64,000 nt of DNA from Candidatus Faecalibacterium intestinigallinarum. Its GTDB lineage: Bacteria; Bacillota; Clostridia; Oscillospirales; Ruminococcaceae. The stretch spans positions 8,445 through 72,444 of the forward strand of contig DXHQ01000100.1 in NCBI GenBank assembly GCA_019113345.1, given 5' to 3'. Below are positions 1,462-48,570 of this stretch, piece by piece. The position numbers were made by a program, and so were the translations under genes. The notes beneath the pieces are model-generated. The model worked only from the letters and a program-made list of their open reading frames with translations. It had not been told where the DNA came from and searched no databases. Positions within the stretch are counted from its first letter, which is position 1; the number at the start of each line of letters is the position of its first letter.

Positions 1462-3600
1462 TTACTGCCCGTCCGGCCTGCTGTCCGGGGTGTCGGGCGT
1501 TTCCGGCGCGGGGATGTCCACCGGGCCGGACGGCGCTTCGTCTGCCGGGGCGGCCGGCGCCTGGGGCGCGGGGGCCTCCTGGACGGGAGCCGGCGTCTCG
1601 GGCGCGGCGGGGGCGGCAGGGGCGTCATCGTCCTTGCGCGGGGGCAGATGCTCGCCCCGCATGATGGCGTTGAACTCGGCCTCGTTCAGCTTCTCCCGCT
1701 CGATCAGGGCCTGGGCCAGCGCGTGCAGCTGGTCGAGATGTTCGGTCAGGGTGCGGCGGCAGGTCTCGTAGGCCTCATCGATGATGTCGCGGATCTCGCT
1801 GTCGATCTCGGCGGCGGTGGTCTCGCTGTAGCCCTTGCCCTGGGCAAAGTCGCGGCCGAGGAAGGTCTCCTCCTGGCTGGTGCCGTAGACCACCGGGCCC
1901 AGCCGCTCCGAGAAGCCGTAGCGGGTAATCATCTGCCGGGCGATGCTGGTGGCCTGCTGCAGGTCGTTGGAAGCGCCGGTCGAGATATCGTCCAAAATCA
2001 GCTGCTCGGCCACCCGGCCGCCCAGGCTGGAGACGATGTCCTCAAACATCTCCCCCTTGGTGACGTAGGAGCGGTCCTTTTCGGGCAGGTACATGGTGTA
2101 GCCGCCGGCCTGGCCGCGCGGGATGATGGTGATCTCGTGCACCCGGGGATGGTGCTTGCAGTAGAAGCCCGCCACCGCGTGGCCCGCCTCATGGTAGGCG
2201 GTCAGCTTCTTCTCCTCGGGGGTGACGACCCGGCTCTTCTTCTCCGGGCCGGCCATCACCTTCATGGAAGCCTCTTCGATGTCCTCCATGGTGATGGCTT
2301 TGCGGTTGCGACGGGCGGCCAGCAGGGCCGCCTCGTTGACCAGGTTTTCCAGGTCGGCGCCGGCAAAGCCCGCGGTCCGCTGGGCGATCACCTTGAGGGA
2401 GACGTCGGGGGCCAGGGGCTTTTTGCGGGTGTGGACCTTCAGGATCTCCTCGCGGCCCTTGACGTCGGGCAGGCCGACGTAGACCTGCCGGTCAAAGCGG
2501 CCGGGGCGGAGCAGGGCCTTATCCAGGATGTCGGCGCGGTTGGTGGCGGCCATGACGATGATGCCGTCGTTGGCCTCAAAGCCGTCCATCTCGACCAGCA
2601 GCTGGTTGAGGGTCTGCTCACGCTCGTCGTGCCCGCCGCCCAGCCCGGCGCCGCGCTGGCGGCCCACCGCGTCGATCTCGTCGATGAAGATGATGCAGGG
2701 CATGGTCTTTTTGGCCTTGTCGAACAGGTCGCGGACGCGGGAAGCGCCGACGCCGACGTACATCTCGACAAAGTCAGAGCCCGAAATGGAATAGAAGGGC
2801 ACCCCGGCTTCGCCGGCACAGGCGCGGGCCAGCAGGGTCTTGCCGGTGCCCGGAGGGCCCACCAGCAGCACGCCGTGGGGGATGCGCGCGCCGAGGGAGT
2901 TGAACTTTTCGGGGCTCTTGAGGAACTCGACGACTTCCTTCAGCTCTTCCTTTTCCTCGTCCTCGCCGGCGACGTCGGCAAAGGTGGCGGTCTTCTGGTT
3001 GGTGGACTCGTCCTTGACCTTGGCGCGGCCAACGTTCATCACGTTGCCGCCCCCTGCGCCGCCCCGCAGCATCGAGAAGAGGATGAACCCGGTGCAGCCC
3101 AGCATGGCCAGATAGAAGAAAATCTCCATCCAGGGCACCGTCTCGCGCAGGGCGGTATAGTCATACTCCATCGGATCGTCGGGGTTGGCGGCGTCGTAGG
3201 CGTCGATATACTGCTGCACCTCATTGATAAAGAGGGCGGCATAGGGCAGCTGATAGCGGACGGTCACGGTGCCGTCGCCGTTGGGCTCCACCTCGTCGCC
3301 CGACGAGCTGCCCGAGCCCAGCAGCCCCGACATCAGCCCGCCGCTGTGGGAGGGCGTCTCGCCGGCGCTTTCGGGCAGGGGCAGGTCCCCTTCCTTGATC
3401 TCCATCGTGATGACGCCGGTGTTGCGGTCGAGGGTGAAGGCGGTCACCTGCAAATGTTCAAAATAATGCACCACCGTTGAATAGCTCATGGTCGTGCCGC
3501 TGGGGGTGTTGGATGTGGTGAACACCGACCAGATCATCAGCACAGCGGCCAGCGCAAGGGCCAGGATCAGCGGGTTCAGGTGCGGTCTTTTCTGCTGCAA
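1462..3600 (-). CDS. ftsH: ATP-dependent zinc metalloprotease FtsH
   Basis: N-terminal TM segment, Walker [12 protein letters not shown]+ body and zinc motif HEAGHA. Sits in the conserved tilS-hpt-ftsH order. Has a Pro/Ala-rich C-terminal tail. Confidence 0.97.
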
Positions 3601-29639: not shown

Positions 29640-30560
29640 ATGTCCATCGGTTCCGTCGTCCTGTTTTTCCTCATCCTGGCGCTGATCCTGCTGGTCGTCC
29701 TCATTGTGGTGACCAACATCGTCATCGTCCCGCAGTCCACCGTCTATGTCATCGAGCGGCTGGGCGTCTACTCGGCCACCTGGGAGGCCGGCCTCCATAT
29801 CAAGATCCCCTTCATCGAGCGGGTGGCCAAAAAGGTCAGCCTGAAAGAGCAGGTGGGCGACTTCCCGCCGCAGCCCGTCATCACCCGGGATAACGTCACC
29901 ATTCAGATCGACACGGTGGTCTTTTTCCAGGTGATGGACGCCAAACTGTATACTTACGGCGTCAACCAGCCCATCGCCGCCCTGGAGAGCCTGTGCGCCA
30001 CCACCCTGCGCAACATCATCGGCGAGATGGAATTGGACCACACCCTGTCCAGCCGCGATGTCATCAACTCCAAGATCACCGCCATCCTGGACGAGGCCAC
30101 CGACAAGTGGGGCATCAAGGTCAACCGGGTGGAGGTCAAGAACATCATGCCGCCGGCCGAGATCCAGGACGCCATGGAAAAGCAGATGAAGGCCGAGCGC
30201 GAAAAGCGCGCCGTCATCCTCAAGGCCGAAGGTGAAAAGCAGGCCGCCATCACCGCCGCCGAAGGCGAAAAGGAAGCCGCCATCCTGCGGGCCGACGCCA
30301 TCAAGCAGCAGCGCATCCTGGAGGCCGAGGGCGAAGCCCAGGCCATCCTGGCGGTGCAGCAGGCCGAAGCCGACGCCATCCGGCTGCTGAACGAGTCCAA
30401 CCCGGACGGCAAGGTGATCGCCCTGCGCAGCCTGGACGCCCTGGCCAAGGTCGCCAACGGCAAGGCCACCAAGATCATCATCCCCTCCGAGCTGCAGAAT
30501 CTGGGCGCGGTCGTCCCCTCCATCGCCGAGCTGCTGACCGACCCCAAGCCCACCGAGTAA
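29640..30560 (+). CDS. SPFH/Band-7 (stomatin/prohibitin-like) protein
   Basis: N-terminal TM segment, an SPFH core and an Ala/Glu-rich coiled coil (AEREKRAVILKAEGEKQAAITAAEGEKEAAILRA). Confidence 0.92.
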   Translation: MSIGSVVLFFLILALILLVVLIVVTNIVIVPQSTVYVIERLGVYSATWEAGLHIKIPFIERVAKKVSLKEQVGDFPPQPVITRDNVTIQIDTVVFFQVMDAKLYTYGVNQPIAALESLCATTLRNIIGEMELDHTLSSRDVINSKITAILDEATDKWGIKVNRVEVKNIMPPAEIQDAMEKQMKAEREKRAVILKAEGEKQAAITAAEGEKEAAILRADAIKQQRILEAEGEAQAILAVQQAEADAIRLLNESNPDGKVIALRSLDALAKVANGKATKIIIPSELQNLGAVVPSIAELLTDPKPTE

Positions 30561-30570
30561 GTGCGCATAT

Positions 30571-30755
30571 AAAAAGTCCCATCCGGCCGACACGTGCGGA
30601 CGGATGGGACACAACCAGGGAAATTTGCCGCAGAGAGTGTGCGAGGCCACCCGGGCCGAGTGCATGGTTCTGCGGCAAATTTTGTCCCCAGGGGGATATT
30701 AGGGGGAAGGAATTTCTGTCGCGCGACTGCGCGCAGAAATGGGTTCCCCCTAAAG
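30571..30755. repeat. copy A of a ~180-bp multi-hairpin intergenic repeat (second copy at 45183-45366)
   Basis: Aligns base for base with 45183-45366. Helices: 30576-85/30601-10, 30621-34/30669-82 and 30700-08/30744-52 with nested stems. The right end overlaps the stop codon of the GNAT gene. Confidence 0.85.
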
Positions 30756-45137: not shown

Positions 45138-45182
45138 CCCCAAATGCCCCCGCCAAAGTGTCCGACGAGGTCAAATTGTCAA

Positions 45183-45366
45183 AAATAGTCCCGCCCGGAT
45201 GACATGTGCATACGGGCGGGACACATACAGGAAAATTTGGCGCAGAGAGTGTGCGAGGCTATAAAGCCGAGTGCGCGGTTCTGCGCCAAATTTTGTCCCC
45301 AGGGGGATATTAGGGGGAAAGAATTTCTGACCCGCGTATGCGGGCAGAAATGGGTTCCCCCTAAAG
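45183..45366. repeat. copy B of the ~180-bp multi-hairpin repeat
   Basis: Collinear with 30571-30755. Helices: 45188-97/45213-22, the AAATTTGGCGCAGA/TCTGCGCCAAATTT pair, and 45311-19/45355-63 with nested stems. Confidence 0.85.
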
Positions 45367-45510
45367 CGTGGCGCTTTTGCGACACGCTGAAAGGCCCCCG
45401 CCGATCTCTCAGGCGGGGGCTTTCTGCTGCCCGGACGGAGGCTTGTGACAGCGTCGTTCTCTTTCGCATACGCTGGTGCAAGACAATCCATCAGCAAAGG
45501 AGCATCCACT

Positions 45511-47874
45511 ATGGCAGCAGGAATTTTGCGCATCCAGTGCTATGCCGCCCGGCAGTCCGCCCCGATGGCGGGGGTCAGCATCACCGTCACCGGCGAGGGC
45601 TTTGCCGCGGACCGGGTGACCGGCACAGACGGCACCGCCGCCGACCTCGAACTCGAAGCCCCGGCCAGCAGCTACTCGCTGGACGAGGCCAACACCACCG
45701 TCCGCCCCTACGCGGTCTGCGCCCTCGTGGCCGAAAAACCGGGCTACCAGACCGTCCGCATCGAAGGCATCCAGATCTTTTCGGGCCAGACCACCCTCGC
45801 CCCCATCGAGATGGTCCCGGCCAACGCCCGCATCGCCGAGCCGGCCGAGCCGGTGGTCATCCCGCCCCACCCCCTCTTTGCGGGGGAGGGAGGCAGCGGG
45901 CCCTCGCCCGCCCTTGCCGGCCCGGCCGCCGCGCCCCGCGTCCTGACCGCGGTGGTCATCCCCAAGACCATCACCGTCCACCTCGGCGCGCCCACCTCTT
46001 CGGCCCGCAACGTCACCGTCTCCTTCCGGGACTACATCGCCAACGTCGCCTCCAGCGAGGTGTATCCCACCTGGCCCGAACAGGCGCTGCGGGCCAACAT
46101 CCACTGTCAGATCTCGCTGGCCCTCAACCGCATCTATACCGAGTGGTATCCCTCGCGGGGGTTCAGCTTCAATATCACCGGCTCCCCCGGCTACGACCAG
46201 GCCTATGTCCACGGCCGCACCGTCTTTGACGTGATGGTCCGCCTCACCGACGACCTGTTCAACACCTATCTGCGCAAGGCCGGCACCACCAACCCCTATT
46301 TCTCCGAGTACTGCGACGGCAAAACGGTATCCTGTCCAGGTCTCAAGCAGTGGGGGACCGTATCCCTCGCCGAGGAGGGGCGCAGCGCCCTCTCCATCCT
46401 GCGGTACTACTACGGCAAGGACATCGAGGTGGTGCGCACCTCCAACATCGCCGCCATCCCCGAGAGCTACCCCGGCAGCCCGGTGCGGCAGGGCAGCCGG
46501 GGGACGTCCGTCTTTATCCTGCAGCGGCAGCTCAACCGGATCACCAAGGACTACCCCTTCTTCGGCGCCCTCACGGTGGACGGCATCTTCGGTGCGGAGA
46601 TGACCGCCACCGTCAAGCGGTTCCAGCGGCAGTTCAGCCTGACCGCGGACGGCACGGTCGGCCGGCAGACCTGGTACAAGATCAGCTACATCTACGTCTC
46701 GGTCAAGGACCTCGCCGAGCTGACCAGCGAGGGCGAGACCTCCTCCGGCAGCCTCTCGGACGGCACCTGGGGCGGCAGGACCCTGCGCACCGGCAGCAGC
46801 GGCAGCGCGGTGGAACAGCTGCAGTTCTGGCTCAACACCATCAGCCAGTATGTCTCGTCCATCCCGTCGGTGACGGTGGACGGGCGGTTCGGCAGCAGGA
46901 CGGCGGCGGCCGTCCGGGCTTTCCAGCGTCGGTACGGCCTCACGGTGGACGGCGTGGTGGGCGAGGCCACCTGGAACGCCGTCTACGCCCAGTTCTTCAG
47001 CATCCAGTCGGACAACGGCACCCCCAACGCCTACCCCGGCACCGCCCTGCGGGAGGGCGCTTCGGGCCAGAACGTCCGCCTGGTGCAGTTCTGGCTCAAG
47101 ATCGCCCGCACCGTCTACACCGCCCTGAACAACCCCTCGGTGGACGGCAAATTCGGCCCGTCGACCCGGCGGGCGGTGGCGGCTTTCCAGCGCTATTTCG
47201 GCCTGAGCGACGACGGCGTCGTCGGCCGCGCCACCTGGAACAAGCTCCGGGAGGTCTACACCGATATTGCCAACGACCTGCTGGCCAAAAACCTCCGCCC
47301 CGGCGAGTTTCCCGGCGTGCTGCGGCGGGGCGCAAGCGGCCGCGCCGTGCGGGAGCTGCAGTACTATCTCTACCTGATGCACGCCTACGACCCCGCCGTT
47401 CCTGCCGTCACCATCGACGGGCGGTTCGGCTCCTCCACCGAGGCGGCGGTCCGGGCCTACCAGCGGCTGGCCGGCCTGACCGCCGACGGGGTAGTCGGCC
47501 GCGCCACCTGGGAAAATCTCTACGCCCAGGCCAACCGGCTGCGGCTGGCCGGGCCGGTGGTCACCGTCAACCGGATGGCTTATCCCGGCGCGCCGCTCGC
47601 CCTCGGCGCCGAAGGCGAGGCGGTGCTCTACTACACCGTCCTGCTCTCCCGCATCGCCTATTACTACGACGCCGTCTCCAGCCCCGGGCTGCTCTCGGTC
47701 TATACCGACGAAGTCGAGACCGGCACCCGCAGCCTGCAGCAGTTTTTGGGCCTGCCGGTGACCGGGACGGTGGACGCCGACACCTGGGACGCCGCCGAGG
47801 GGCTGGGTCTGGCCCTTCTGACCGGCGCGCTCGAGCCGGGGGCCGCGCCGCTGCCGCAGCCGGAGGAGGGGTGA
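45511..47874 (+). CDS. SleC-like spore-cortex-lytic/peptidoglycan-binding protein with five PG_binding_1 repeats
   Basis: The core ITVHLGAP...VSFRDYIANVASSEVYPTWPEQALRANIHCQISLALNRIYTEWYPSRGF...YCDGKTVSCPGLKQWGT...WYKISYIYVSVKDLAELTSEG resembles clostridial SleC as I recall it. There is an N-terminal carboxypeptidase-regulatory-like beta domain and five tandem ~65-aa VDG(R/K/I)FG...DG(V/T)VG..TW repeats. The start is trimmed to the ATG at 45511 (AAAGGAG RBS). Confidence 0.7.
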   Translation: MAAGILRIQCYAARQSAPMAGVSITVTGEGFAADRVTGTDGTAADLELEAPASSYSLDEANTTVRPYAVCALVAEKPGYQTVRIEGIQIFSGQTTLAPIEMVPANARIAEPAEPVVIPPHPLFAGEGGSGPSPALAGPAAAPRVLTAVVIPKTITVHLGAPTSSARNVTVSFRDYIANVASSEVYPTWPEQALRANIHCQISLALNRIYTEWYPSRGFSFNITGSPGYDQAYVHGRTVFDVMVRLTDDLFNTYLRKAGTTNPYFSEYCDGKTVSCPGLKQWGTVSLAEEGRSALSILRYYYGKDIEVVRTSNIAAIPESYPGSPVRQGSRGTSVFILQRQLNRITKDYPFFGALTVDGIFGAEMTATVKRFQRQFSLTADGTVGRQTWYKISYIYVSVKDLAELTSEGETSSGSLSDGTWGGRTLRTGSSGSAVEQLQFWLNTISQYVSSIPSVTVDGRFGSRTAAAVRAFQRRYGLTVDGVVGEATWNAVYAQFFSIQSDNGTPNAYPGTALREGASGQNVRLVQFWLKIARTVYTALNNPSVDGKFGPSTRRAVAAFQRYFGLSDDGVVGRATWNKLREVYTDIANDLLAKNLRPGEFPGVLRRGASGRAVRELQYYLYLMHAYDPAVPAVTIDGRFGSSTEAAVRAYQRLAGLTADGVVGRATWENLYAQANRLRLAGPVVTVNRMAYPGAPLALGAEGEAVLYYTVLLSRIAYYYDAVSSPGLLSVYTDEVETGTRSLQQFLGLPVTGTVDADTWDAAEGLGLALLTGALEPGAAPLPQPEEG

Positions 47875-47877
47875 ACC

Positions 47878-48570
47878 ATGGCCCGCCTGCTGATCTACGA
47901 CAACTACGACGACCGGGTCTACACCTACGCCGATGTGAACGAAAGCGACGCCATGCCCTACAGCACCGAGCAGACCCTTCTGGTGCGGGAGTTCCGGGGC
48001 GAGTCGGGCAGCCCCACCCTCTGGACCACCACCGCCGCCATGGAGGCCTGGAACCTGACCCGCCGCCGGTACGGCCGGGGCATCCACGTCGGCTACGCCT
48101 TCCGCCGCATCTGGGAGGGCGGCCACGGCACCCGCAGCCAGCACTACGCCGGCGTCTCCTTCGACGTGGGGCAGACCACCACCGCCGCCCACCGGGTCGA
48201 GATCTTCAACGCGGCCCTGCGCAGCGGGGCCTGGGGCTACGTCGAGCCCCTCTCCCTCACCCCCACCTGGGTCCACTTTGACCGGCGGTACGGCGTGCCG
48301 TCCTGCGAGGGCACCACCTCGGGCTACCCCACCCTCCGCCGGGGCAGCCGCGGCTGCTACGTCATGGTCCTGCAGGACGCTCTTTCCGCCCTGGGCTACC
48401 CCACCGGCGAGAAGATCGACGGGGTGTTCGGGGTCCTGACCGAAAACGCCCTCAAGGGCTACCAGCGCCGCAACTGGCTGACCGCCGACGGCGTCTGCGG
48501 CTGCAACAGCTGGGCCAAGATCTCCACCTCGGTGCTGGGCATCGGCCGGACGCCGACCACGATCGATTAG
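47878..48570 (+). CDS. M15-family zinc D-Ala-D-Ala carboxypeptidase-like protein with a C-terminal PG_binding_1 domain
   Basis: SQHYAGVSFD (SxHxxGxAxD) and a WVHFD histidine, followed by GSRGCYVMVLQDAL...IDGVFG...ADGVCG. Starts 3 nt after the preceding gene ends. Confidence 0.7.
   Translation: MARLLIYDNYDDRVYTYADVNESDAMPYSTEQTLLVREFRGESGSPTLWTTTAAMEAWNLTRRRYGRGIHVGYAFRRIWEGGHGTRSQHYAGVSFDVGQTTTAAHRVEIFNAALRSGAWGYVEPLSLTPTWVHFDRRYGVPSCEGTTSGYPTLRRGSRGCYVMVLQDALSALGYPTGEKIDGVFGVLTENALKGYQRRNWLTADGVCGCNSWAKISTSVLGIGRTPTTID

What the first reader, a model, noticed from the sequence alone, without database searches (positions are those of the whole stretch)
30571..30755. Structured ~180-bp repeat family whose two copies differ by compensatory base changes in four helices
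Region 30571-30755 aligns collinearly with 45183-45366. Most positions are identical, and the substitutions concentrate in stems as matched pairs.

| Helix | Copy A | Copy B |
|---|---|---|
| 1 | GTCCCATCCG/CGGATGGGAC | GTCCCGCCCG/CGGGCGGGAC |
| 2 | AAATTTGCCGCAGA/TCTGCGGCAAATTT | AAATTTGGCGCAGA/TCTGCGCCAAATTT |
| 2 (inner stem) | GGCC/GGCC | GGCT/AGCC |
| innermost stem of the last hairpin | CGCGC/GCGCG | CCCGC/GCGGG |

- The last hairpin is composite, with outer stems TAGGGGGAA/TTCCCCCTA and ATTTCTG/CAGAAAT that are identical in both copies.
- Loops diverge freely.
- This is the classic covariation signature of a selected secondary structure, either RNA or single-stranded DNA.
- I do not recognise it as a named RNA family.
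- In copy A the element begins exactly at the stop codon of the GNAT gene on the minus strand.
Basis: seen in the sequence. Interest (0 to 1): 0.62.

Follow-up and report, generated by a model that had tools for sequence, protein, structure and literature searches.

The report
Structured mini-transposon that targets terminator hairpins
The two look-alike 180-base stretches are copies of a small, gene-less mobile DNA element, abundant in chicken-gut Faecalibacterium, that lands on transcription-terminator hairpins, duplicates the whole hairpin as it inserts, and preserves a multi-hairpin fold through matched base changes.

Summary

With 32 copies from eight chicken-gut Faecalibacterium genomes the signal is very strong:
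- 96.8% of cells pair.
- 27 of 76 pairs show double changes.
- Wobble pairs work only on the + strand (210 G·U cells against 3 A·C).

It is not an ordinary RNA gene. It is a roughly 215-nt non-coding mobile element:
- Its DNA read depth is 48-85 times that of the flanks.
- It has imperfect terminal inverted repeats with the core TGTC(A/G)AAAAA.
- Two loci have element-free alleles in other strains.
- In 11 of 32 copies the flanking terminator hairpin is duplicated on both sides. The duplication is 13-36 bp and tracks hairpin length.
- A different element in a phage contig has the same terminus and a 25-bp hairpin duplication.

Copy B is full length, 45172-45388 with an extra 3' hairpin. Copy A is a relic truncated at both ends.

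No Rfam family matches. No transposase was found. RNA data are uninformative.

Verdict: a real feature, and a MITE-like element with an unusual structure-directed, hairpin-length target duplication. The reason for the strand-specific fold is unresolved.

The parts
45142..45171 (+). Upstream copy of the target duplication at copy B. 45142-45154, AAATGCCCCCGCC, repeats 45390-45402 in 12 of 13 positions. 45155-45171 is probably the decayed other half of the duplicated hairpin; by my own inspection about 10 of 18 positions still match.
   Evidence: flank alignment, 0.01 of shuffles as good. An element-free allele in run X13 joins 45141 to 45390 and skips 248 nt.
45172..45187 (+). 5' terminus and left inverted repeat of copy B, CAAATTGTCAAAAATA. 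The family consensus is CAGACTGTCAAAAAAG.
   Evidence: Alignment of 32 copies. [quoted passage not shown] The same terminus occurs on an unrelated element in L035.
45188..45222 (+). Helix 1 of copy B: GTCCCGCCCGG...CGGGCGGGAC with the conserved loop GACATGTGC.
   Evidence: 14 pairs, 7 with double changes, 99.8% of cells paired.
45232..45294 (+). Helix 2 of copy B. This is a long hairpin with conserved G·U pairs, a tandem G·A internal loop and an apical tetraloop.
   Evidence: 26 pairs, 9 with double changes. Five pairs here are G·U in most copies. The loop is GNRA in 21 of 32 copies.
45295..45308 (+). Small predicted hairpin 3, GTCCCCAGGGGGAT. It is invariant in the main family, so its pairing is untested. 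A diverged subfamily has CCAAAAGGGGG here, which argues against this pairing.
45310..45364 (+). Composite hairpin 4/5 of copy B. The outer stem is TAGGGGGAA/TTCCCCCTA, the middle stem ATTTCTG/CAGAAAT, and the inner stem varies.
   Evidence: The inner pairs covary (GC/CG/AU and CG/UA). The outer pairs covary in subfamily copy L023 5184-5367 (UA to CG).
45365..45388 (+). Hairpin 6 and 3' terminus (right inverted repeat) of copy B, AGCGTGGCGCTTTTGCGACACGCT.
   Evidence: 7 of 9 pairs show double changes. It is present in 24 of 32 copies by my count.
45390..45426 (+). Intrinsic terminator of the GH36 alpha-galactosidase gene: AAAGGCCCCCGCC-GATCTCTCA-GGCGGGGGC followed by TTTCTG. This is the target site, and it forms the downstream copy of the duplication.
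   Evidence: The empty allele keeps exactly this hairpin directly after the stop region.
30571..30755 (+). Copy A, a relic truncated at both ends. It lacks the CAGACTGTC terminus, hairpin 6 and any flanking duplication. Helix 1 is 30576-30610, helix 2 is 30620-30683, hairpin 3 is 30684-30697 and hairpin 4/5 is 30699-30753. It fills the whole 189-nt gap between convergent SPFH/Band-7 (+) and GNAT (-) genes.
   Evidence: (no flanking repeat).
30750..30755 (-). The last Leu codon and the TAG stop of the GNAT gene (CTT TAG). They are encoded by the element's own ...CCCCCTAAAG end.

Best explanation
This is a non-autonomous mobile DNA element of the MITE type. It is about 215 nt long (5'-CAGACTGTCAAAAAAG ... 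CGTTTTTCGACACGCT-3') and is specific to chicken-gut Faecalibacterium.

Shown:
- It is multi-copy and non-coding.
- It is present or absent between strains.
- Its ends are imperfect inverted repeats built around TGTC(A/G)AAAAA.
- It inserts at the foot of palindromic hairpins, mostly intrinsic terminators at gene 3' ends.
- The complete hairpin is then found on both sides of the element, so the target-site duplication equals the hairpin plus 0-3 nt (21-36 bp).
- Its interior folds, on the + strand only, into five or six hairpins that are kept by compensatory substitutions.

Inferred:
- A transposase supplied in trans recognises the termini. It attacks the two DNA strands at the two feet of an extruded hairpin or cruciform. 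Gap repair then copies the whole palindrome.
- The upstream hairpin copy loses its T-tract. A sense-oriented insertion would therefore be read through and end at the downstream copy.
- The strand-specific fold is a requirement of the element itself. It could act as a single-stranded DNA or RNA form used in mobilisation, or as an inherited or maintained transcript structure that makes insertions tolerable. It is not a host gene function.

Window copy B is an intact insertion in the GH36 terminator. Copy A is a decayed fossil.
For: Family and abundance:
- A 23-mer scan of 185,579 species genomes hit 28 loci, all Faecalibacterium from chicken.
- The conserved 3' part has 48-85 times the depth of its flanks in DNA metagenomes.

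Mobility:
- In run X29 a 997-nt contig joins L009 5831 to 6083. It skips 251 nt with 36 nt fitting both sides. The empty allele therefore has one copy of the 36-nt hairpin that flanks the 215-nt element on both sides in L009.
- A second empty allele exists for window copy B.

Hairpin duplications:
- In 11 of 32 copies the flanks share a repeat of 13-36 nt, with at most 0.01 of shuffles scoring as well.
- In 10 of the 11, the upstream copy ends within 2 nt of the 5' terminus (18 nt away in window copy B). In most of them the downstream copy starts within 2 nt of the 3' terminus.
- All of these repeats are palindromic, and their length follows hairpin length.

Termini:
- Alignments.
- A second, unrelated-core element in phage contig L035 (784-1019) has the same CAGACTGTCAAAAAAG end and a 25-nt hairpin duplication.

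Location:
- Only 1 of the 28 copies with a gene called on both sides lies between divergent genes.

Structure:
- 96.8% of cells are paired, and 27 of 76 pairs have double changes.
- 0 of 500 shuffles reach the observed values. Slid controls give 33-53% paired.
- There are 210 G·U cells against 3 A·C cells.

No ORF, promoter or Rfam family.

Precedents for sequence-independent targeting of terminator hairpins (IS1272/TnSha1; PMC4923244, PMC5678879) and for 27-28-bp duplications in Firmicutes IS (bioRxiv 10.1101/2022.12.17.520857).
Against: - No transposase-bearing element with these termini was found in about 320 kb of related DNA, or in the plasmid, phage and viral collections. The enzyme and chemistry are therefore inferred.
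- The inverted repeats are short and imperfect (12 of 14).
- The TGT/ACA motif lies 5 and 4 nt inside the ends defined by the empty site.
- Only about one third of copies still show the duplication.
- A double-stranded cut-and-paste mechanism does not by itself explain why wobble pairs are conserved on one strand only.
- Cruciform targeting is a model, not an observation.
Confidence: 0.75

Rival explanations
1. It is a host-useful structured RNA, either a 3'-UTR element or a small RNA. Its copies spread because the RNA stabilises, terminates or regulates the upstream transcript.
For: - The covariation is strand-specific, with GNRA tetraloops, tandem G·A pairs and conserved G·U pairs.
- 23 of 31 copies have the upstream gene on the same strand.
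- Runs labelled as metatranscriptomes contain contigs running from the GH36 gene into the element.
Against: - Closely related strains carry element-free alleles.
- The flanking genes are functionally unrelated.
- In the informative co-directional contexts the element is sense 8 times and antisense 6 times.
- By my reading of the T-tracts, 4 of the 11 copies with duplications face against the terminator's gene.
- No promoter-like site was found.
- The element-to-flank depth ratio in runs labelled as metatranscriptomes (14-80) does not exceed that in DNA runs (48-85).
- Truncated relics such as copy A are tolerated.
Confidence: 0.08
2. It moves as single-stranded DNA through an HUH/Y1-type enzyme, like IS200/IS605 derivatives or REP/REPIN-RAYT systems. 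Its hairpins would be the enzyme's recognition structures on one strand.
For: - Folding is conserved on one strand only.
- Hairpins lie next to both ends (helix 1 and hairpin 6).
- The targets are hairpins, which such enzymes and ssDNA recombination systems often read (own knowledge of IS608, REP and attC biology).
Against: - IS200/IS605 and REPIN mobility leaves no target duplication and needs no inverted repeats (own knowledge). Here the duplications are long, and the termini are inverted repeats shared with a second family.
- No conserved 4-5-nt target motif lies 5' of the element.
Confidence: 0.1
3. It is a retro-mobile RNA, a bacterial SINE-like element copied by a reverse transcriptase at terminators. 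This would explain the RNA-like fold and the variable-length duplications.
For: - The structural features look RNA-like.
- The duplication length varies.
- Insertion right after terminator hairpins recalls class C group II introns (own knowledge).
Against: - The downstream hairpins are locus-specific and are not carried over from a donor transcript.
- There is no A/U-tail logic at the 3' end.
- The ends are defined and inverted-repeat-like.
- No group II or other ribozyme matches, even at E up to 10.
- No reverse transcriptase was identified.
Confidence: 0.04
4. The compensatory pattern is not selected. Hairpin arms are homogenised by template-switch (quasipalindrome) repair during replication, so stems stay complementary without any function.
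For: - Template-switch correction of imperfect palindromes is a known mutational process (own knowledge).
- All covarying stems are local hairpins.
- The shuffle controls do not account for shared ancestry (caveat stated).
Against: - Such repair should erase wobble pairs. Yet six pairs are G·U in most copies and none is A·C.
- Minority states are 30 G·U against 3 A·C.
- Loop identity (GNRA) and bulges are kept.
- Several differently compensated helix-1 variants coexist in one genome.
Confidence: 0.08

Closest known systems
Bacterial MITEs and small dispersed repeats that fold in transcripts (pneumococcal BOX/RUP/SPRITE, Neisseria Correia, enterobacterial ERIC, Bacillus cereus bcr1)
   Same: They are small, non-coding and multi-copy. 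They sit in intergenic DNA, preferentially downstream of genes, and are strongly base-paired. They have terminal inverted repeats and target duplications and depend on a transposase in trans (PMC3049150, PMC10969869; remainder own knowledge).
   Different: - The duplication here is the whole target hairpin (21-36 bp), not 2-9 bp.
- The fold is a row of five or six local hairpins with strand-specific wobble pairs, not a single pairing of the two ends.
- The partner IS is unknown.
- The host range is limited to chicken-gut Faecalibacterium.
IS1272 / TnSha1 (IS1182 family, staphylococci)
   Same: Insertion is directed to hairpin-forming inverted repeats, many of them confirmed transcription terminators, with no primary-sequence specificity (PMC4923244, PMC5678879).
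   Different: - Those elements delete or replace part of the hairpin and make no target duplication. Here the hairpin is kept and duplicated.
- Those are autonomous 1.9-kb IS.
- No relationship between the enzymes has been tested.
IS1202 subgroup of the IS1202 family
   Same: It makes unusually long target duplications (27-28 bp, or 16-28 bp in another survey) and occurs in Firmicutes. TGT...ACA motifs lie at the ends (bioRxiv 10.1101/2022.12.17.520857; PMC10132070).
   Different: - Duplication length there is fixed per subgroup. Here it tracks hairpin length from 21 to 36 bp.
- TGT/ACA is at the very tip there. Here it lies 5 and 4 nt inside.
- No hairpin targeting is reported for that subgroup.
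- No transposase was found here.
REP/BIME and REPIN-RAYT systems
   Same: They are extragenic palindromic repeats at gene 3' ends. Folding of one DNA strand matters, and the stems evolve by compensation (PMC2817692; own knowledge).
   Different: REP units are 20-40 nt, have no terminal inverted repeats or target duplication, and are tied to a Y1 (RAYT) transposase. None of this is seen here.
Class C (IIC) group II introns
   Same: They insert immediately after intrinsic-terminator stem-loops, which they recognise by structure (own knowledge).
   Different: They are ribozymes of at least 600 nt with domains V and VI and make no target duplication. No Rfam intron model matches here.

Membership tests
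MITE (non-autonomous terminal-inverted-repeat transposon) | Small (under about 500 bp) with no coding capacity | tested here: met
   The element is 215 nt by the empty-site definition. The only ORF-like ATG lies in a variable stem arm and is not conserved.
MITE (non-autonomous terminal-inverted-repeat transposon) | Many dispersed copies per genome | tested here: met
   At least 7 and at least 11 copies were found in two single genomes by an exact 23-mer. DNA depth is 48-85 times that of the flanks.
MITE (non-autonomous terminal-inverted-repeat transposon) | Terminal inverted repeats | tested here: met
   [quoted passage not shown] The repeats are short and imperfect. The core TGTCAAAAAA is shared by a second family with a perfect 10-nt repeat.
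MITE (non-autonomous terminal-inverted-repeat transposon) | Target-site duplication flanking the element, with one copy in the empty site | tested here: met
   L009 has a perfect 36-bp duplication, and the empty allele has one copy. Eleven of 32 copies have significant flanking repeats. The length is atypical for a MITE.
MITE (non-autonomous terminal-inverted-repeat transposon) | A cognate autonomous IS with the same termini that encodes the transposase | tested here: inconclusive
   None was found in the 64-kb window or the 35 fetched loci. None was found in plasmid, phage or viral collections. Whole genomes of the host species could not be scanned again.
Rfam-described structured RNA | Covariance-model match at the gathering score | tested here: not met
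   There were 0 matches in the whole window. At E up to 10 the only hit was a chance mir-657 match (16 bits against a gathering score of 69).
IS200/IS605-derived elements (PATEs) and REPINs | No target duplication, no terminal inverted repeats, insertion 3' of a fixed 4-5-nt motif | tested here: not met
   Long duplications and inverted-repeat ends are present. No conserved 5' flank motif exists.
IS1182-family style hairpin targeting (IS1272) | Insertion into hairpins with partial deletion or replacement of the hairpin and no duplication | tested here: not met
   Hairpins are the targets, so that part is met. They are duplicated intact, not deleted.
IS1202 family | DDE transposase with HTH and the DD(Q) signature; TGT...ACA tips; a fixed duplication length per subgroup | tested here: inconclusive
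   No transposase is available to test. TGT/ACA is present but subterminal. Duplications are 21-36 bp and variable.
Group II intron (class C) | Ribozyme domains V/VI and at least 600 nt of intron RNA | tested here: not met
   There is no Intron_gpII or group-II-D1D4 match. The element is 215 nt.

The most novel reading that the evidence does not exclude
The most novel reading not excluded has two parts.

1. This is a structure-directed transposition system not yet described. An unidentified enzyme reads extruded DNA hairpins at intrinsic terminators and joins the element at both feet, so the target duplication equals the hairpin.
2. The strand-specific, RNA-like folded core is required in cis, as single-stranded DNA or as a transcript, for that reaction. 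The element would then be more than passive cargo between two inverted repeats.
Probability: 0.2. Interest if true: 0.8.

Novelty: new variant of a known kind. Interest (0 to 1): 0.55.

Why it matters
- It gives a clean natural example of a mobile element choosing its target by DNA shape rather than sequence. The molecular footprint, a duplication of the entire terminator hairpin, is easy to score in genomes.
- It rewires the 3' ends of dozens of genes in a dominant gut commensal genus. The original terminator loses its T-tract, about 215 nt of very stable structure is added to the transcript, and in some cases gene ends are rewritten, as with the GNAT stop codon here.
- It is a caution for RNA discovery. 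Textbook covariation with G·U pairs and GNRA loops can come from a transposon family.
- If the fold turns out to be needed for mobility, it would point to a new transposition chemistry.

Tried and rejected
- **Rfam.** Searches at gathering score and at E up to 10 found nothing.
- **Group II domain V.** I noticed that the interior of helix 2 (GAGAGUGUGCGAG...GAGUGCGCGGUUC) looks like group II intron domain V. No intron model matches and the architecture differs, so I dropped it.
- **Small ORF.** Copy A has an ATG in helix 1, but it is not conserved across copies.
- **Parent IS.** None of these approaches found a transposase:
  - terminus searches with mismatches
  - a generic inverted-repeat scan of all loci
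  - paired-terminus scans with and without a flanking repeat
  - BLAST against plasmids and phages
  - viral-contig scans
- **Long forms.** I spent the single metagenome scan on the 'long form' seen in read overhangs. It is only the same element with 110-230 nt of extra hairpin modules, not an autonomous parent.
- **RNA evidence.** All available RNA runs are unstranded assembled contigs. The element-to-flank depth ratio (14-80) does not exceed the ratio in DNA runs (48-85), and coverage continues past the terminator. These data cannot show transcription, strand or processing.
- **'Always co-oriented with transcription'.** This was my early impression. The gene-context count (8 sense against 6 antisense in co-directional pairs) and four antisense duplication-bearing copies rejected it.
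- **Donor-terminator carry-over (retroposition) model.** Rejected because downstream hairpins are locus-specific and match the empty site.
- **Literature.** I found no description of hairpin-length duplications, or of this Faecalibacterium repeat, in the held library. Two IS review papers were not held.

Full report
**1. The observation**

They align collinearly with a single 1-nt indel. In register, the first 77 nt are 82% identical and the last 101 nt are 91% identical.

Each copy folds much better than shuffled sequence. The + strand gives -108 and -110 kcal/mol (z -9.4 and -10.8). The - strand gives -96 and -95 kcal/mol (z -7.9 and -8.5). A repeat scan and an nhmmer profile search find only these two copies in the window.

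**2. It is a large family, confined to one lineage**

I scanned one genome from each of 185,579 species for an invariant 23-mer, CCCCAGGGGGATATTAGGGGGAA. It hit 28 loci, all in Faecalibacterium from chicken: isolate An122, Ca. F. avium, Ca. F. gallistercoris, Ca. F. faecigallinarum, and several uncultured Faecalibacterium MAGs including the closed genome OZ007013.1. Single genomes carried at least 7 and at least 11 copies.

Public runs that hold the window are chicken or bird gut metagenomes. In four DNA metagenomes the conserved 3' part of the element has 48-85 times the depth of the unique flanks. In another sample it reaches nearly 200 times. Plasmid, phage and viral collections have no copy.

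**3. True extent and anatomy**

The alignment of 32 copies shows that the unit is longer than the finding.
- It begins with CAGACTGTCAAAAAAG, nine bases upstream of the A-run.
- In 24 of 32 copies it ends with a sixth hairpin, AGCGTGTCG-TTTTT-CGACACGCT.

Window copy B has both ends (45172-45388). Copy A has neither.

The two ends are imperfect inverted repeats. [quoted passage not shown]

Diverged subfamilies and 'long forms' exist. The long forms carry 110-230 nt of extra hairpin modules between hairpins 3 and 4. None carries an ORF.

**4. The covariation is real and strand-specific**

I counted pairs on the named structure, including hairpin 6:
- 96.8% of 2,422 cells form a standard pair.
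- 27 of 76 pairs have changes on both sides.
- None of 500 column shuffles reaches any observed measure.
- Sliding the 3' partners by 1-3 columns drops pairing to 33-53%.

Helix 1 has 7 of 14 pairs with double changes and helix 2 has 9 of 26. The inner stem of hairpin 5 has 2 such pairs, and the outer stem of hairpin 4 covaries in a subfamily copy.

The fold belongs to the + strand:
- 210 cells are G·U against 3 that are A·C. An A·C cell would be a G·U pair on the other strand.
- Six pairs are G·U in most copies and none is A·C.
- Where the majority pair is Watson-Crick, minority states are 30 G·U against 3 A·C.
- The helix-2 loop is a GNRA tetraloop in 21 of 32 copies (GCAA, GUAA, GAAA).

In long form L029 the tandem G·A loop is replaced by G-C and C-G pairs.

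The caveat printed applies: related sequences can beat shuffles without any structure. The slid controls and the one-sided wobble pattern are not explained by relatedness.

**5. It is mobile, and its footprint is a duplicated terminator hairpin**

In many loci the sequence just upstream of the 5' terminus reappears just downstream of the 3' terminus. A local alignment of the two flanks, with shuffled controls, is significant (at most 0.01 of shuffles as good) in 11 of 32 copies.

| Copy | Repeat length (nt) |
|---|---|
| L009 | 36 |
| L019 | 29 |
| L004 | 27-28 |
| L015, L007, L023, L016 | 25 |
| L006 | 24 |
| L008 | 21 |
| L027 | about 20-25 |
| Window copy B | 13 |

In 10 of the 11, the upstream repeat ends within 2 nt of the element's 5' terminus. 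In window copy B it ends 18 nt away. In most of them the downstream repeat starts within 2 nt of the 3' terminus. Every repeat is a palindromic hairpin, and its length follows the hairpin's length. The downstream copy usually keeps a T-tract. The upstream copy runs straight into CAGACTGTC.

Two element-free alleles settle the direction of the event.
- In run X29 a 997-nt contig at full local depth joins L009 5831 to 6083. It skips 251 nt with 36 nt fitting either side. The empty site therefore holds one copy of the 36-nt bidirectional terminator, and the filled site holds 36 + 215 + 36.
- For window copy B, a contig in run X13 joins 45141 to 45390 and skips 248 nt. That leaves the GH36 stop region directly followed by its terminator.

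Recombination between the repeats could also produce an empty allele. It cannot explain why eleven different hairpins each flank the same element.

**6. The termini, not the core, go with this behaviour**

A viral-contig scan for the 18-nt 5' terminus found a phage fragment, L035, which carries a terminase gene. A different 236-nt non-coding element lies there at 784-1019.
- It starts with the identical CAGACTGTCAAAAAAG.
- It ends with ...TTTTTTTGACAAACAGAA, giving a perfect inverted repeat TGTCAAAAAA.
- It is flanked by a duplicated 25-nt hairpin, GGCTGCGGCAGGAATGCYGCAGCCT, whose second copy is followed by GTTTTTTG.

Two unrelated interiors with the same ends and the same hairpin-length duplication argue for a terminus-recognising transposase with structure-directed targeting.

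**7. Context**

Copy A fills the 189-nt gap between convergent SPFH/Band-7 and GNAT genes. Copy B lies between the GH36 alpha-galactosidase stop codon and its terminator.

Across the family the element sits next to a gene 3' end. Only 1 of the 28 copies with a gene called on both sides lies between divergent genes. Orientation relative to transcription is not enforced. In co-directional gene pairs it is sense 8 times and antisense 6 times (using a crude GC3-based gene caller).

Eight of ten copies lacking hairpin 6 have a convergent ORF whose stop codon lies 0-12 nt after ...CCCCCTAAAG. In copy A the GNAT gene's last Leu codon and its TAG are element sequence.

No sigma-70-like promoter lies in or beside either window copy.

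**8. RNA evidence is uninformative**

All RNA-labelled runs are unstranded assembled contigs. Contigs run from the GH36 gene into the element and from the element past the terminator at similar depth. The element-to-flank ratios (14-80) do not exceed those of DNA runs (48-85). DNA carry-over cannot be excluded. I draw no conclusion on transcription, strand or processing.

**9. Mechanism**

Shown:
- a non-coding, multi-copy element that is polymorphic for presence;
- inverted-repeat ends;
- insertion at hairpin feet, with duplication of the complete hairpin;
- a fold kept on one strand.

Inferred:
- A trans-acting transposase joins the element's two ends to the two strands at the two feet of an extruded hairpin or cruciform. 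In linear sequence the two attack sites are then one palindrome apart, and gap repair duplicates the whole palindrome. This explains why duplication length tracks hairpin length (21-36 bp) and is not fixed.
- The strand-specific fold is unexplained by such a mechanism. It may reflect a single-stranded intermediate, an RNA-level requirement of active lineages, or a structure inherited from and maintained with the unknown parent.

The enzyme was not found.

**10. Comparison with known systems**

- It works like a MITE and meets the definitional features I could test, except for a known partner IS.
- Its targeting resembles IS1272/TnSha1 of the IS1182 family. Those hit terminator hairpins without sequence specificity, but they delete or replace the hairpin and leave no duplication (PMC4923244, PMC5678879).
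- Its long duplications recall the IS1202 subgroup (27-28 bp, Firmicutes). There the length is fixed and the TGT/ACA motif is at the very tip. Here TGT/ACA lies 5 and 4 nt inside the ends (bioRxiv 10.1101/2022.12.17.520857, PMC10132070).
- REP/REPIN, IS200/IS605 derivatives and class C group II introns share single features but fail defining ones.
- I found no description of this repeat or of hairpin-length duplications in the held literature.

**11. Verdict**

The best reading is a new, lineage-restricted MITE-like family with an unusual structure-directed target duplication and an unexplained strand-specific fold. It is a new variant of a known kind, and interest is moderate to good.

Noticed in passing
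L035 759-1044 (IMG/VR phage contig; terminase ORF at 1684-3117): A second, unrelated-core non-coding element of 236 nt. It has the identical 5' terminus CAGACTGTCAAAAAAG, here followed at once by its own inverted copy. It has a perfect inverted repeat TGTCAAAAAA and is flanked by a duplicated 25-nt hairpin. The same mobilisation system therefore appears to reach phage genomes.
   Followed up: partly
L020 5328-5756; L029 2319-2636; L030 1972-2290: 'Long forms' of the element carry 110-230 nt of additional hairpin modules between hairpins 3 and 4. The family is modular, rather like BOX elements. No ORF is present.
   Followed up: partly
window 30750-30755 (-); L010, L011, L020, L021, L022, L024, L026: Copies that lack the 3' hairpin abut a convergent gene. 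The stop codon lies 0-12 nt after ...CCCCCTAAAG. In the window, the GNAT gene's last Leu codon and TAG stop are element sequence, so the insertion or its later trimming rewrote the gene end.
   Followed up: partly
L018 1106-1321 (+) and 3358-3571 (-): Two copies in inverted orientation, with their 5' termini outward, bracket about 2 kb of ordinary genes. The arrangement resembles a composite transposon. The outer flanks share no duplication.
   Followed up: no
L009 5820-6083: A third allele in run X27 lacks both the element and the 36-nt terminator hairpin. It has 11 nt (CAAAACACAAA) in their place.
   Followed up: no
window 30190-30460, inside the SPFH/Band-7 gene 29640-30560: Contigs from several DNA and RNA runs skip 110-254 nt here, and depth is locally raised. 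This suggests a repetitive, length-variable C-terminal region of the protein among strains.
   Followed up: no
window 46579-48522: Five diverged 105-nt direct repeats spaced 264-300 nt apart (one gap of 1002 nt) correspond to the repeated PG_binding_1 domains of the 809-aa protein encoded at 45445-47874.
   Followed up: partly
window 1-64000: The Rfam gathering-threshold scan found no RNA family at all in the 64 kb: no tRNA, riboswitch or leader.
   Followed up: no
element termini, e.g. L009 6082-6068 and 5883-5868 (- strand): The motifs TGT and ACA, typical transposon tips in the IS3/IS481/IS1202/Tn7 group, lie 5 nt and 4 nt inside the ends defined by the empty site. The outer bases (CAGAC... 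and ...CGCT) are conserved as part of the element.
   Followed up: no
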